Source of the DNA: Escherichia coli
GTDB lineage: Bacteria > Pseudomonadota > Gammaproteobacteria > Enterobacterales > Enterobacteriaceae
NCBI RefSeq assembly: GCF_050920415.1
Contig: NZ_CP169309.1
DNA length: 64,000 bases
Strand: one strand, 5' to 3'
Each line of letters starts with the position of its first letter. Within the stretch, counting starts at the first letter, position 1. The position numbers are program-made. Of the stretch, positions 12,701-15,700 are shown one piece after another.

Positions 12701-15700
12701 AGAAAGCAGCACAATTCGTGGCTTATTCTTTGGTTACTCTCATTCTGATATTGGTTTTGATCGCGGCGGTAAAGGCAATGTCGATAGCTATACCCTGGGG
12801 GCTTATGCCGGTTGGGAGCATCAGAACGGTGCCTATGTTGATGGGGTGGTGAAAGTTGACCGTTTTTCCAACACCATCCATGGCAAGATGAGTAATGGGG
12901 CAACAGCGTTTGGCGATTACAATAGTAACGGCGCGGGTGCTCATGTCGAGAGCGGGTTCCGTTGGGGGGAGGGGTTGTGGAATGTAAGGCCTTATCTGTC
13001 CTTTACCGGCTTTACCACTGATGGTCAGGACTATACGTTATCAAATGGTATGCGAGCGGATGTGGGAAATACCCGCATATTACGCGCTGAAGCGGGAACG
13101 GCGGTAAGCTATCACATGGACCTGCAAAACGGTACGACGCTGGAACCCTGGCTGAAAGCCGCCGTGCGTCAGGAATACGCCGATTCTAACCAGGTGAATG
13201 TTAATGACGACGGCAAATTTAATAATGACGTGGCTGGAACCCGTGGCGTTTATCAGGCTGGGATAAGGTCATCGTTTACCCCGACGTTAAGCGGTCATTT
13301 GTCAGTCAGCTATGGCAATGGCGCGGGGGTAGAATCACCGTGGAATACCCAGGCGGGTGTGGTCTGGACGTTCTGATAACAGAAAATAAACAGGCCGTAA
13401 TGTGTCGCGGTCTGTTTATCAAATTAATCGCAGATATAAAAAAAACCAACCGCAATAGGTTGGTTTTTCTTGGGATTTTTGGTCGCACGAGAGTAGTTTA
13501 ATTGAGTGTATAACTAAATGATTTTAAATAATATTCTTTATTCAACTTTTAAATCGTATAACCAAACGTATAACTAAAATAATTTGCTGAAAAAGTGTAC
13601 AATTTCAGCAATAATTGCCCTAGCGACTATCATCCTGCTCCCCGGATTTTTTCCGGTTAAATGTTAATCAGGCTGCTGGGCTTTGCCTGTTCGGTAGGTG
13701 TAATGATTATCGTAATACTTTTCCCCCAATGGGGTAAAAGCATCAACCGTAACGGAAGTCGTTATGGTTGCCTTGATGATCTGCGTGGTCATTATGACCA
13801 TTCAGCCAATGACCTTAATCAGAGCTTTTCGCTAAAAATGACGTTGGCCACTCGTCCGAAAAGCACAAAATCCCATCGATTTTTAATTAACGGTTAAACC
13901 GTCTTTTTGTCACGTCGTGTCACTGGTTGTCACTCTCCGTCACGATCTCCGATAGCCTGGCTGCAAATTAAACTACGAAAATTTCGTAGTTCTGACTTCT
14001 TTCAGATAGTCGGTTGCCTGGTTACACGAAAAAAATTACTTCCTGCGTTTATCCCGCTTTGTATGTCCGTGCTGAATGCCCCGCAGTGGATCTTCTTTTT
14101 TCAGGTCGATCCCCATGTCCGTTAGTGTTTTTGTGGCGGCGGTTCTTATGGCACAAATCAGGTCTCTTTCCGGTTCCCGGGTTATGGTTGCCTTCCGGAT
14201 ACATGCCGTTCGTCGTTCCGTTACATACTGACGCGCTTCATCACTTGCCGCCTGTTTCAGTAACTCACCCCAGCGATTAGCCGCCCGTCGCCATAAACCT
14301 TTCGCTTCCAGTTCTTCCGCTTTGTCATCATGCACCATAAGCATAATCCCATTGATACCTGTTAAATCTGAATGGTTGGTTTCCGTTCTTTTGATAATTT
14401 CCCTCATAGCTTATTGTATGACAGTACTGTCCCACAATAAGGAATCACACATGAGAATGACCAGGCACAAAAAACAGATTCTTGAACTTTACAAACCTGA
14501 GTATCGCGATTGGGTGCGGGTGGAGGCCGGAGATCCGCCTTTTGATGTTCGTGGTGTGACAGTGCTGCTCTATGGTTCCGAATATCAGCGATATCACATA
14601 GAGGCAACCCGACGAACGTTAAACGCTATGGTAAATGATGGGATCCTGTACCGCGTGAAAGTGCGCGAACCCCGCTTTGATGTGCGTATCGGTAGCGATG
14701 GCGCTCACTGTACGGTAATCCGGTACGGGCTGGGTAAATCAGATGATTAAATCACCAGAATGTAAATTTACATTCTGCCAGCCACCAGCTACAGAACGCA
14801 AATTTGCACTTTGCTGAAATATTAACGGGTTAGGCCAGAGTGCAAATTTGCATTATGCTTTAACTTCAGCAAGTTACCGCCGTAACCGCTCCGGCTTCTT
14901 CCACTGGTACGTTATTTTGGCTTTTTCCCTGTACGTCTGTATCCGGCGACGGTAGGCCAGCATTTCAAGAACGCGGATCCGTATGTCGCGCATATCCGCA
15001 TCATTAAGCTGGATACCATCACGGTGCATCACCTCAGCAACCACACGAACATAATTTTCTGCGGTCACGCTGTCCGGCTGCGTGGCCTGTTCGTCAGCCT
15101 GCTGGTTGATTCCGGCGACGCGGCGGATTAATCGCAGTAGTTCGGTTTCTGTCATTGTGCCCCCATCGCGCTGGTTAAGAAAACAAGCTCAGATTTTTTG
15201 TAAAGAATCTGTCACGCTAAAAGATGTCGAACAAAAAACAACCTTCTCCATCATCTTTTTTGCATCGATTACATTAAAAACAACAGGTTACATACATGAT
15301 GATGATGACGATAAAATCACAAAAATGCGCTTTTTTCCGCGCCCGCCCGCCCCGTGTTCATACCCACCCCACCAGGAGGACCCGCAAAAAAGGCGGCTGG
15401 TGCCGCCTTGTTGTCATAGTGAATCGGTACCGCCTGATTTGACCATACCGCGATAATCCAGAGCGGCCACACCAGCATCAATACGGACTTTCCAGGCCAC
15501 ACCGTCAACGATGAAACCTTCCTGCTGTTCAAGGTAAGGCTCGTCATTGCCATCAAGATAAGCCACCTCGATTGTGTCCGTTCCCTGTGCGGAAAGCATG
15601 TACCATTGTTTTTCGCTGATATCATCAAGGCGGGGATCGACGATAATATCCAGTAGTTTGTGATACGGGTTAAAGATCCCGCTGTTTTTATCTGCCCCGA

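What the first reader, a model, noticed from the sequence alone, without database searches (positions are those of the whole stretch)
13506..13586. TATAACTAAA repeats at both ends of the island
The motif CGTATAACTAAA occurs in multiple copies just inside both att-proximal ends (13506-13586 and 24105-24160, in both orientations). Their position relative to the integrase gene and att core fits integrase arm-type binding sites, which would define the functional attL and attR.
Basis: partly seen in the sequence, partly recalled or inferred. Interest (0 to 1): 0.4.

Follow-up and report, generated by a model that had tools for sequence, protein, structure and literature searches.

The report
Integrase arm sites of satellite island
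The 12-base motif repeated at both ends of this 10.8-kb E. coli island is almost certainly the set of accessory ("arm") docking sites for the island's own P4-type integrase; this is an expected feature, although relatives show that the motif and the integrase's N-terminal domain have changed or been exchanged together several times.

Summary
CGTATAACTAAA occurs five times exactly and twice with one mismatch, only in two short clusters just inside the ends of a 10.8-kb island. The island is inserted at tRNA-Pro(GGG) proL of E. coli. The interpretation as integrase arm-type sites is supported as far as computation allows.

- The island's integrase has an Arm-DNA-bind_3 domain that matches solved arm-type binding domains (3JU0, 3JTZ).
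- The layout matches the arm repeats annotated in the phage P4 record: int ATG, inverted copies, tandem pair, about 130 nt, core, about 60 nt, tandem pair.
- About 30 relatives from many Enterobacterales keep this layout but use at least six different motifs.
- The motif type follows the integrase N-terminal domain. It does not follow the rest of Int, AlpA, the replication genes or the host.

Two Pectobacterium elements show this directly. Their DNA is 90-100% identical except for a roughly 250-330-nt block made of the repeats plus the first 65-90 int codons. Their AlpA is identical over the matched residues.

Caveats:
- The copy at 13507-13518 is not conserved and overlaps an IHF-like consensus.
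- The attL core carries a 1-nt deletion, so attL function is not shown.
- No binding experiment exists.

This is a new member of a known kind, of modest interest.

The parts
13480..13493 (.). attL core, TGGTCGCACGAGAG: a remnant copy of the tRNA-Pro 3' end with 1 nt missing relative to attR/attB (TGGTCGGCACGAGAG)
13507..13523 (.). Core-proximal 11/12 copy (TGTATAACTAAA, 13507-13518) overlapping an IHF-like consensus on the minus strand (AATCATTTAGTTA = 13523-13511). Only AATCA...GTTA is conserved in relatives, so this is probably an IHF (H') site rather than an arm site
   Evidence: the IHF consensus WATCAANNNNTTR is from general knowledge
13555..13578 (+). Distal (P') arm: tandem pair CGTATAACCAAA + CGTATAACTAAA with 12-nt period, 61 nt from the core
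   Evidence: cognate pairs at the same place in L090, L095, L098, L106 and in P4
13583..13605 (.). Conserved block TTTGCTGAAAAAGTGTACAATTT just beyond the distal pair, kept in all E. coli classes; function unknown (possibly the outer edge of attP)
24103..24128 (-). Proximal (P) arm, two copies on the minus strand (24103-24114 and 24117-24128). The nearest ends 31 nt upstream of the int ATG
24135..24158 (+). Proximal (P) arm, tandem pair on the plus strand with 12-nt period, 131 nt from the attR core
24160..24289 (.). P-arm spacer between arm sites and core. It carries a second repeat family (ATCCGGTGAT-like, about 6 copies at 24160-24200 and 24262-24289; candidate RDF or core-proximal sites) and a terminator hairpin for proL at 24243-24216 (minus strand)
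24290..24304 (-). attR core, the 3' end of tRNA-Pro(GGG) (tRNA 24290-24366, minus strand)
22830..24071 (-). int: a P4-family tyrosine integrase of 413 aa. Arm-DNA-bind_3 at aa 8-94, Phage_int_M at 107-203, Phage_integrase at 215-379
22109..22315 (-). alpA (AlpA-family wHTH; probable master regulator or RDF). Its sequence does not track the repeat motif
   Evidence: PMC11773190

Best explanation
The CGTATAACTAAA repeats are the arm-type binding sites of the island's own heterobivalent P4-family tyrosine integrase.

Reconstructed attP. Reading in the sense of int, the order is: distal tandem pair (13578-13555), an A/T-rich spacer with an IHF-like site, the 15-17-bp core (the tRNA-Pro 3' end), a 131-nt spacer carrying a proL terminator hairpin and a second repeat family, a tandem pair (24158-24135), two inverted copies (24128-24103), and 31 nt later the int ATG.

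Inferred mechanism. The N-terminal arm-binding domain (aa ~8-95) docks on these sites while the core-binding and catalytic domains of the same protomers hold the core. Bending proteins (IHF, and AlpA or another RDF) would help fold attP, or attL plus attR, into an intasome and set the direction of the reaction.

Likely second role. The four proximal sites lie between the tRNA terminator and the int start codon, and in several relatives and in P4 the last site overlaps the ATG. Int bound there probably also represses its own expression. This has been shown for P4 Int, PAI I536 IntI and KplE1 IntS.

Shown here: the sites, their layout, their conservation, and their change of type together with the Int N-terminal domain. 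Inferred: binding, intasome function and autoregulation.
For: 1. Int carries Arm-DNA-bind_3 (PF13356, E 4.8e-23) plus the central and catalytic domains. Residues 8-105 match the solved arm-type binding domains 3JU0 (E 1.6e-18) and 3JTZ.

2. Int is 35% identical to P4 Int (E 4e-82). The P4 GenBank record annotates 12-nt 'attP arm sequence repeats' in the same layout: a copy overlapping the int ATG, a tandem pair, 112 nt, the core, 53 nt, a tandem pair, with motif TTGGGGGCAT.

3. In E. coli proL islands of three int classes the layout is kept while flanks diverge. In the class whose int is ~79% identical at DNA level, every copy on both arms reads CGTATAGCTAAA or CGTGTAGCTAAA, a concerted A-to-G change.

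4. About 30 relatives (41-83% aa identity) from Escherichia, Pectobacterium, Brenneria, Erwinia, Rosenbergiella, Citrobacter, Pantoea, Edwardsiella, Gilliamella, Limnobaculum and Pseudidiomarina mostly keep the two-plus-two inverted arrangement next to the int ATG; a few degraded loci (L093, L115, L117) show only three copies. They use at least six motifs: TAGTTATAC, TAGCTATAC, GGGACTAC, RGGACTAG, GGCATAG and GTAGTAC.

5. Motif type follows the N-terminal 62 aa. Pairs with different motif super-types are 54.7 +/- 3.8% identical there (maximum 62.9), and pairs with the same super-type 75.9%. It does not follow residues 111 to the end (71.7% against 73.1%). Residues 18, 23, 26, 32, 40, 42 and 46 partition by motif type.

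6. Natural swap: L095 (TTATAC) and L099 (GGGACTAC) are 90-100% identical in DNA from the tRNA to -60, and from about +200 to +270 onward. They are 43-73% identical across the repeats plus the first 65-90 codons. The C-terminal parts are 99.3% identical and the N-terminal parts 62.9%.

7. The distal arms, at the other end of the integrated island, carry the same lineage-specific motif in L090 and L095 (TATAC types) and in L098 and L106 (GGGACTA type).

8. Target site (proL, ssrA, another tRNA) varies independently of arm motif, as expected for separate arm- and core-recognition modules.

9. For autoregulation: int lies downstream of, and co-oriented with, the tRNA, with a 218-nt intergenic region. 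This is the 'STI' shape that PMC2951348 predicts to be autoregulated and confirmed in vivo for several tested examples. P4 Int and PAI I536 IntI repress their own promoters (PMC7286903). The last site lies 9-12 nt from, or over, the ATG in many relatives.
Against: - There is no binding or recombination experiment for this element.
- The proximal repeats and the N-terminal codons are physically contiguous, so a single recombination tract could swap both without functional coupling. The distal arms answer this only in lineages where they were within reach; L099's distal arm was not found.
- The residue-to-motif association is not corrected for shared ancestry.
- No sigma-70 consensus promoter was found between the terminator and int, so the autoregulation step has no mapped promoter.
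- The attL core is imperfect (1-nt deletion), so the present copy may not recombine.
- The 13507-13518 copy does not behave as an arm site in relatives.
Confidence: 0.85

Rival explanations
1. The repeats are binding sites for AlpA, the wHTH regulator or excisionase-like protein encoded just downstream of int. AlpA would act as RDF and/or activator of int.
For: AlpA-family proteins are Xis/Vis-like, and alpA downstream of int is required for PICI excision (PMC11773190). RDF sites normally lie in the int-proximal arm. The repeats sit next to the int start.
Against: AlpA is 100% identical in the window and in L004, although all copies differ (TATAAC against TATAGC). The AlpA homologue is identical over the matched residues 5-59 in L095 and L099, although their repeats are unrelated (TTATAC against GGGACTAC). 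RDF sites are usually on one arm only, whereas these lie on both arms.
Confidence: 0.03
2. The repeats are operators or promoter elements for int transcription (TATAAC resembles a -10 hexamer), or sites for a host protein, with no role in recombination.
For: The proximal cluster lies in the int 5' region, and the motif contains TATAAC. In many relatives a TTTACA lies 17 nt upstream of a TAnnnT formed at the junction of repeats 1 and 2 (read by eye).
Against: The same motif recurs in the distal arm, 10.6 kb away in the integrated state and on the far side of the core in attP, where there is no int promoter. Other lineages use GGGACTAC, GGCATAG and similar motifs that are not -10-like. Motif types differ within one host species, which argues against a host factor. 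The consensus promoter scan found nothing. A regulatory role in addition to recombination is compatible with the main explanation.
Confidence: 0.05
3. The repeats are replication-origin iterons or a packaging (pac/cos) signal of the satellite.
For: Satellites carry iterons. P4 has ori and crr repeats near attP.
Against: The motif does not track the replication protein. L004 (RepA helicase) and L006 (DUF927) share the TATAGC motif. L005 and L006 both encode DUF927 proteins but differ in motif. A separate iteron-like array (GGTAGATAG/GGTAGACAG, 18315-18492) lies next to the primase gene. In P4 the ori/crr repeats are a different sequence from the arm repeats.
Confidence: 0.02
4. The sites are genuine arm sites, but this copy is a grounded relic. 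With a damaged attL core the island can no longer excise precisely, so the sites are no longer used for recombination here and at most serve int autoregulation.
For: The attL core has a 1-nt deletion in the window. All 11 E. coli-type elements examined have deletions of 1 to about 10 nt starting right after CTCTCGTG. No 100% match to a restored attL was found in 5,426 E. coli genomes; the best was 98.8% with one gap. Some relatives have frameshifted int (L004, L113).
Against: int is intact here (413 aa), all six well-conserved sites are perfect or 11/12, and the deletion may lie outside the strand-exchange region, which is not mapped. The family is widespread with varied cargo (about 440 of 5,426 genomes), which implies recent mobility.
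Confidence: 0.3

Closest known systems
Phage P4 attP arm repeats (the 'attP arm sequence repeat' features in NC_001609) and P4 Int
   Same: Same integrase family (35% identity, same three Pfam domains). Same order and orientation: inverted copy or copies next to or over the int ATG, a tandem pair with 12-nt period, 112 nt (131 here) to the core, 53 nt (61 here) from the core to a second tandem pair in the same orientation. Integration at the 3' end of a tRNA gene, with int reading away from the core.
   Different: The motif sequence differs (TTGGGGGCAT in P4, TTTAGTTATACG here). There are two inverted copies here against one annotated in P4. The target is proL rather than a leucine tRNA. The island carries a terminator hairpin for the tRNA in the P arm.
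Lambda Int arm-type sites (P1, P2, P'1-P'3)
   Same: Works alike in principle: a heterobivalent integrase whose small N-terminal domain binds a motif unrelated to the core, on both arms of attP, with an IHF-type bend between arm and core (general knowledge; PMC9791396 abstract).
   Different: The arm-binding domain family differs (DUF4102/Arm-DNA-bind_3 has an extra strand and helix, PMC8138268). In lambda the int 3' end faces attP, whereas here the int 5' end does, so the arm sites overlap int regulation.
KplE1 (CPS-53) IntS/TorI attL, and PAI I536 IntI
   Same: int lies next to and co-oriented with a tRNA gene, and the recombination region overlaps the int regulatory region. Int represses its own gene by binding arm-type sites (PMC2951348; PMC7286903). 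The 218-nt tRNA-int spacer here falls in the 208-228 nt mean range reported for predicted autoregulated cases.
   Different: No promoter is mapped here, and autoregulation is inferred only.
[quoted passage not shown]
   Same: Int residues 8-105 align to 3JU0 (E 1.6e-18) and residues 8-91 to 3JTZ (E 1.4e-10).
   Different: Those islands use other tRNA targets, and I could not retrieve their arm-site sequences (paper not held).
ICEKp1 state-dependent int transcription (PMC13023037)
   Same: A tRNA-adjacent int whose 5' region carries a terminator-like stem-loop downstream of the tRNA. In the window a terminator hairpin at 24243-24216 lies between proL and int, and no consensus promoter follows it.
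   Different: ICEKp1 is a large conjugative element. Whether read-through from proL, or a promoter brought in from the distal end, drives int here is untested.

Membership tests
Arm-type sites of heterobivalent tyrosine integrases | The cognate integrase has an N-terminal arm-binding domain | tested here: met
   PF13356 at aa 8-94, E 4.8e-23; matches 3JU0 and 3JTZ
Arm-type sites of heterobivalent tyrosine integrases | Several copies of a short motif, unrelated to the core sequence, on both sides of the core within about 150 bp | tested here: met
   Four copies 131-187 nt from the attR core and two (plus one doubtful) 13-85 nt from the attL core. The motif is unrelated to TGGTCGGCACGAGAG
Arm-type sites of heterobivalent tyrosine integrases | Site sequence changes together with the arm-binding domain, independently of the core-binding and catalytic domains | tested here: met
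   L095 against L099: C-terminal part 99.3% identical, N-terminal part 62.9%, repeats unrelated
Arm-type sites of heterobivalent tyrosine integrases | Direct, sequence-specific binding by the Int N-terminal domain | not testable with these tools
   Needs EMSA or footprinting
Arm-type sites of heterobivalent tyrosine integrases | The sites are required for integration and/or excision | not testable with these tools
   Needs recombination assays with site mutants
P4-family (DUF4102 / IntSXT-subgroup) integrase module | Sequence homology to P4 Int with the same domain order | tested here: met
   35% identity over 405 aa, E 4e-82; Pfam domains; subgroup description in PMC8138268
P4-family (DUF4102 / IntSXT-subgroup) integrase module | Integration into the 3' end of a tRNA/tmRNA gene, which is restored by the element, with int next to the core | tested here: met
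   tRNA-Pro(GGG) is intact at attR; the empty site in K-12 shows the 15-17-bp shared core
P4-family (DUF4102 / IntSXT-subgroup) integrase module | Complete catalytic domain with the tyrosine nucleophile | tested here: inconclusive
   Full-length Phage_integrase match (profile 3-170 of 172) and alignment to P4 Int through ...RRAY. Individual catalytic residues were not itemised
RDF (Xis/AlpA/Vis/TorI) binding sites | Site sequence follows the identity of the RDF | tested here: not met
   Identical AlpA with different motifs
Replication iterons | Site sequence follows the initiator protein and lies at the origin | tested here: not met
   Same motif with different Rep proteins and the reverse; a separate iteron-like array at 18315-18492
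Gram-negative PICI-type phage satellite (context of the island) | Order int - alpA - primase, PerC-like gene, about 10-20 kb, site-specific att | tested here: met
   gene set as described for E. coli PICIs in PMC11773190
Gram-negative PICI-type phage satellite (context of the island) | Induction, excision and packaging by a helper phage | not testable with these tools
   No experimental data for this element

The most novel reading that the evidence does not exclude
Within one integrase family that shares a single core/attB specificity (mostly proL), the arm-binding domain and its arm sites form an exchangeable cassette with at least six specificities. Islands with different arm types sit in tandem at the same tRNA (L112: a GGGACTA-type island followed by a GGCATA-type island; L100 similar). 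Diversification of arm specificity may therefore act as an insulation or incompatibility system. Co-resident satellites that compete for one attB could each excise and autoregulate independently, without being cross-excised or cross-repressed by a neighbour's integrase. The natural swaps would also give a readable recognition code for the DUF4102 arm-binding domain (residues 23, 26, 32, 40, 42, 46).
Probability: 0.25. Interest if true: 0.55.

Novelty: new member of a known kind. Interest (0 to 1): 0.33.

Why it matters
The sites fix the true extent of attL (about 13480-13605) and attR (about 24100-24304) of a satellite-type island carried by roughly 8% of complete E. coli genomes. They also predict how its integrase is positioned and probably autoregulated. 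The broader value lies in the comparison. One layout with at least six motif types, and near-isogenic pairs that differ only in the repeats plus the first 65-90 codons of int, offers ready-made material for working out how P4-type arm-binding domains read DNA. It could also help in predicting att boundaries of tRNA-borne islands automatically. In itself the finding is what a specialist would expect to see next to a P4-family integrase.

Tried and rejected
- L030 as a circular or tandem 4.3-kb form. I first read this IMG/VR contig as proof of an excised attP. Self-comparison showed only two short duplicated segments. It is two different islands in tandem, and its attP-like junction is an inter-island junction.
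- An exact search for the class-A attP junction in IMG/VR found only that same contig. I ran no further search on it.
- The 2-mismatch copy at 22825-22836, at the int stop codon, recalls the intragenic repeat annotated in P4. It is not conserved in relatives and was rejected as chance.
- Consensus sigma-70 promoter scans of attR, attL and the attP-like junction found no int promoter. A weak TTTACA-17-TAnnnT arrangement seen by eye in non-E. coli relatives is not present in the window.
- Most IMG/VR loci start exactly at the int start codon, so they gave no proximal arms.
- The paper on the HPI/HAI7 arm-binding domain structures is not held.
- The AlpA, replication-iteron, host-factor and chance explanations were considered and rejected, as set out under the rival explanations.
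Full report
**Where the window comes from and what the island is**

The window is E. coli chromosome. It is nearly identical to strain 08-00022 across int and attR (99.8%). A 10.8-kb island lies between the autotransporter gene yejO (ends at 13376) and tRNA-Pro(GGG) proL (24290-24366, minus strand).

K-12 has the empty site. Comparing the two gives the shared core:
- attR core: TGGTCGGCACGAGAG (24290-24304), the tRNA 3' end.
- attL core: TGGTCGCACGAGAG (13480-13493), a remnant lacking one G.

All named island genes lie on the minus strand:

| Gene | Coordinates | Note |
|---|---|---|
| int | 24071-22830 | 413 aa |
| alpA | 22315-22109 | AlpA family |
| DUF4222 gene | 20550-20251 | |
| D5_N-type primase | 20254-18506 | |
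| ClpP-like protease / major-capsid fusion | 17303-15414 | |
| PerC-family gene | 14407-14036 | |

This gene order is the one described for Gram-negative PICI satellites (PMC11773190). About 440 of 5,426 complete E. coli genomes carry a related int at proL, in three DNA identity classes: about 100%, 92-94% and about 79%.

**The observation**

Exact CGTATAACTAAA occurs five times in 64 kb:
- 13567-13578 (+)
- 24103-24114 (-)
- 24117-24128 (-)
- 24135-24146 (+)
- 24147-24158 (+)

There are also 11/12 copies at 13555-13566 and 13507-13518. The 10-mer with up to one mismatch gives 9 matches against 2.61 +/- 1.52 in shuffles; 7 of the 9 are in the two clusters.

**Anatomy as an attP**

Joining the two ends through the core, and reading in the sense of int, gives this order:
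1. A conserved block (13605-13583).
2. A tandem pair of sites (13578-13555).
3. A 61-nt A/T-rich spacer.
4. The core.
5. A 131-nt spacer.
6. A tandem pair in the same orientation as the distal pair (24158-24135).
7. Six nt.
8. Two inverted copies (24128-24103).
9. 31 nt, then the int ATG.

The 131-nt spacer holds a strong hairpin followed by a T-run at 24243-24216. It lies downstream of proL on the tRNA strand and replaces the native terminator. The spacer also holds about six copies of a second motif, ATCCGGTGAT-like.

**The integrase**

Int has three Pfam domains: Arm-DNA-bind_3 (aa 8-94), Phage_int_M and Phage_integrase. Residues 8-105 match the solved 'arm-type binding domains' of the HAI7 and HPI integrases (3JU0, E 1.6e-18; 3JTZ). 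A published survey assigns the DUF4102 domain to the arm-binding class (PMC8138268). Int is 35% identical to P4 Int (E 4e-82).

**Comparison with P4**

The P4 GenBank record annotates 12-nt 'attP arm sequence repeats':
- one overlapping the int ATG, inverted;
- a tandem pair 15 nt further on;
- 112 nt to the 20-bp core;
- 53 nt to a second tandem pair in the same orientation.

That is the window's layout with a different motif (TTGGGGGCAT). The tandem period is 12 nt in both.

**Comparison within E. coli**

Six proL islands were aligned. The four proximal and two distal sites keep their positions, while the surrounding spacer diverges strongly.
- In the ~79% (DNA) class (L004, L006) every copy on both arms reads CGTATAGCTAAA or CGTGTAGCTAAA. 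This is a concerted A-to-G change at position 7.
- A third class (L005; also E. albertii L088) is mixed.
- AlpA is 100% identical in the window and in L004. The DNA is 96-100% identical from 21893 to about 23077, then drops to 65-80% through the remaining ~1 kb (5' part) of int and the P arm. So the motif follows int and not alpA.
- Replication genes do not follow it either. L004 (RepA helicase) and L006 (DUF927) share a motif; L005 and L006 (both DUF927) do not.

**Comparison across genera**

A scan of one genome per species with an Int alignment returned 35 loci. I examined the region upstream of int in 31 of them; about 30, counting the E. coli proL loci, entered the motif-type tallies. Upstream of int almost every one has the tRNA (or tmRNA), a hairpin terminator, then two repeats followed by two inverted repeats. 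A few degraded loci (L093, L115, L117) show only three copies. The repeats end 0-45 nt before the ATG.

The motif differs by lineage:
- TTTAGTTATAC
- TTTAGCTATAC
- TTTGGGACTAC
- TTTAGGACTAG
- TTTAGGCATAG
- TTTAGTAGTAC

In the TATA(A/G)C group, positions T5, A6, C8 and A10 of the 12-mer are invariant in 78 sites. The target gene varies independently of the motif: proL, ssrA, another tRNA.

The N-terminal sequences fall into matching types:

| N-terminal type | Repeat motif |
|---|---|
| KEYTLQDG…SGSK(I/L)WRF(S/N/T)YY | TATA(A/G)C |
| KELSLHDG…SGTKTWRFRYY | GGGACTAC |
| KE(I/L)(T/S)L(T/L)DG…SGVKTWQLRYY | RGGACTAG |

Residues 18, 23, 26, 32, 40, 42 and 46 separate the types.

Pairwise identities for 24 full-length proteins:

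| Pairs | N-terminal 62 aa | Residues 111 to end |
|---|---|---|
| Different motif super-type | 54.7 +/- 3.8% (max 62.9) | 71.7% |
| Same super-type | 75.9 +/- 11.8% | 73.1% |

One outlier, L109, was lumped with the G types by my labelling.

**A natural swap**

L095 (Pectobacterium aroidearum, TTATAC) and L099 (P. peruviense, GGGACTAC) compare as follows:
- DNA is 90-100% identical from the tRNA to about -55 relative to the ATG.
- DNA is 90-100% identical again from about +200 to +270 onward. BLAST resumes at +197; the 30-nt window profile recovers at +270.
- DNA is 43-73% identical in between, that is, across the repeats plus the first 65-90 codons.
- The C-terminal parts are 99.3% identical and the N-terminal parts 62.9%.
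- Their AlpA homologues are identical over the matched residues 5-59.

L116 and L106 show the same pattern (92.1% against 51.6%).

The proximal repeats abut the swapped codons, so one recombination tract could move both. The independent check is the distal arm. Where it lay within the fetched DNA it carries the lineage's own motif as a 12-nt-period pair about 85-95 nt upstream of the core (start of the pair to start of the core): L090 and L095 (TATAC types), L098 and L106 (GGGACTA type). The E. coli classes behave the same way.

**The third copy at attL**

TGTATAACTAAA (13507-13518) is 11/12 only in the window and in 08-00022. Other class-A islands have CGTGTAACTTCA, TGTGTAACTACA and similar; the TATAGC class has CCAATAACCTC.

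What is conserved at this position is AATCA…GTTA on the int-sense strand. This matches the IHF consensus WATCAANNNNTTR (general knowledge) at 8 of 9 specified positions in the window and perfectly in L004, L006 and L042. I therefore read it as a probable IHF bend site between core and distal arm, not as a third arm site. A weak arm site is not excluded.

**Regulation (inferred)**

int lies downstream of and co-oriented with the tRNA, with a 218-nt spacer. This is the 'STI' shape that Panis et al. predict to be autoregulated, a prediction they confirmed in vivo for several integrase genes (PMC2951348). P4 Int and PAI I536 IntI repress their own promoters (PMC7286903).

No consensus promoter was found between the terminator and int. 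int may therefore be read from attenuated proL read-through, or from a promoter supplied after circularisation, as shown for ICEKp1 (PMC13023037). Four Int-bound sites just upstream of the ATG would block either route. This step is plausible but untested.

**Function of attL**

Every E. coli-type attL examined keeps CTCTCGTG and then lacks between 1 and about 10 nt of the tRNA 3' end. I found six alleles in eleven elements, and the allele differs even between the window and the 99.9%-identical 08-00022 island. A restored attL sequence has no perfect match in 5,426 genomes; the best is 98.8% with one gap. Two of four non-E. coli elements have intact attL cores.

So the arm sites delimit attL and attR. 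Whether this attL still recombines is open.

**Verdict**

The repeats are real, non-random and conserved. On all available computational evidence they are the cognate arm-type sites of a P4-family integrase. This is a known kind of feature, here in an uncharacterised satellite family. The exchange of repeat motif and N-terminal domain together, and the attL micro-deletions, are the only parts that go beyond the expected.

Noticed in passing
window 13480-13493; attL of L001, L003-L007, L021, L034, L042: Every E. coli-type attL core keeps CTCTCGTG (int-sense) and then lacks between 1 and about 10 nt of the tRNA 3' end. There are six alleles in eleven elements, with a fixed left boundary. The allele differs even between the window and the 99.9%-identical island of strain 08-00022. 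No perfect match to a restored attL exists in 5,426 genomes. This could mark the Int cleavage position (scars of abortive cleavage and repair) or selection for grounded copies.
   Followed up: partly
L112 3668-3713 and 9918-9962; L100 9936-9981 and 18533-18577; L030 3988-4306: Related islands sit in tandem at one tRNA with different arm-motif types (GGGACTA-type next to GGCATA-type). The inter-island junction looks like an attP: distal arm, intact core, proximal arm.
   Followed up: partly
window 24160-24200 and 24262-24289: A second repeat family (ATCCGGTGAT / CCGGTGA, about six copies) fills the space between the proximal arm sites and the core. Relatives have similar NCGG(A/T) repeats there. 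These are candidate RDF (AlpA/Xis-like) or core-proximal sites.
   Followed up: no
window 24216-24243 (minus strand): The island supplies its own hairpin and T-run terminator just downstream of proL, replacing the native bidirectional terminator left behind at attL. An equivalent hairpin is present in nearly all relatives.
   Followed up: partly
window 13583-13605: The block TTTGCTGAAAAAGTGTACAATTT, just beyond the distal arm pair, is conserved in all three E. coli int classes although the neighbouring DNA is unrelated. Its function is unknown.
   Followed up: no
window 15311-15408 and 17850-17947: Two copies of a 98-nt element (79% identical), rich in a GCGC…TTTTTCCGCGCCCGCCCGCCCCGTG stretch. 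One lies just downstream of the capsid-fusion gene and the other overlaps the 3' end of a small minus-strand ORF. It could be a terminator or a regulatory RNA module.
   Followed up: no
window 18315-18492: An iteron-like array (GGTAGATAG / GGTAGACAG, direct and inverted) lies immediately downstream of the primase gene. It is the likely replication origin of the island.
   Followed up: no
window 14792-14876: Two 22-nt near-repeats, each centred on the palindrome GCAAATTTGC and 44 nt apart, lie in the intergenic region upstream of the 14874-15155 ORF. They look like operators.
   Followed up: no
window 10782-13376: yejO is an uninterrupted 864-aa ORF in the window. RefSeq marks it as a pseudogene (internal stop or truncation) in 08-00022, K-12 and several other strains.
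   Followed up: no
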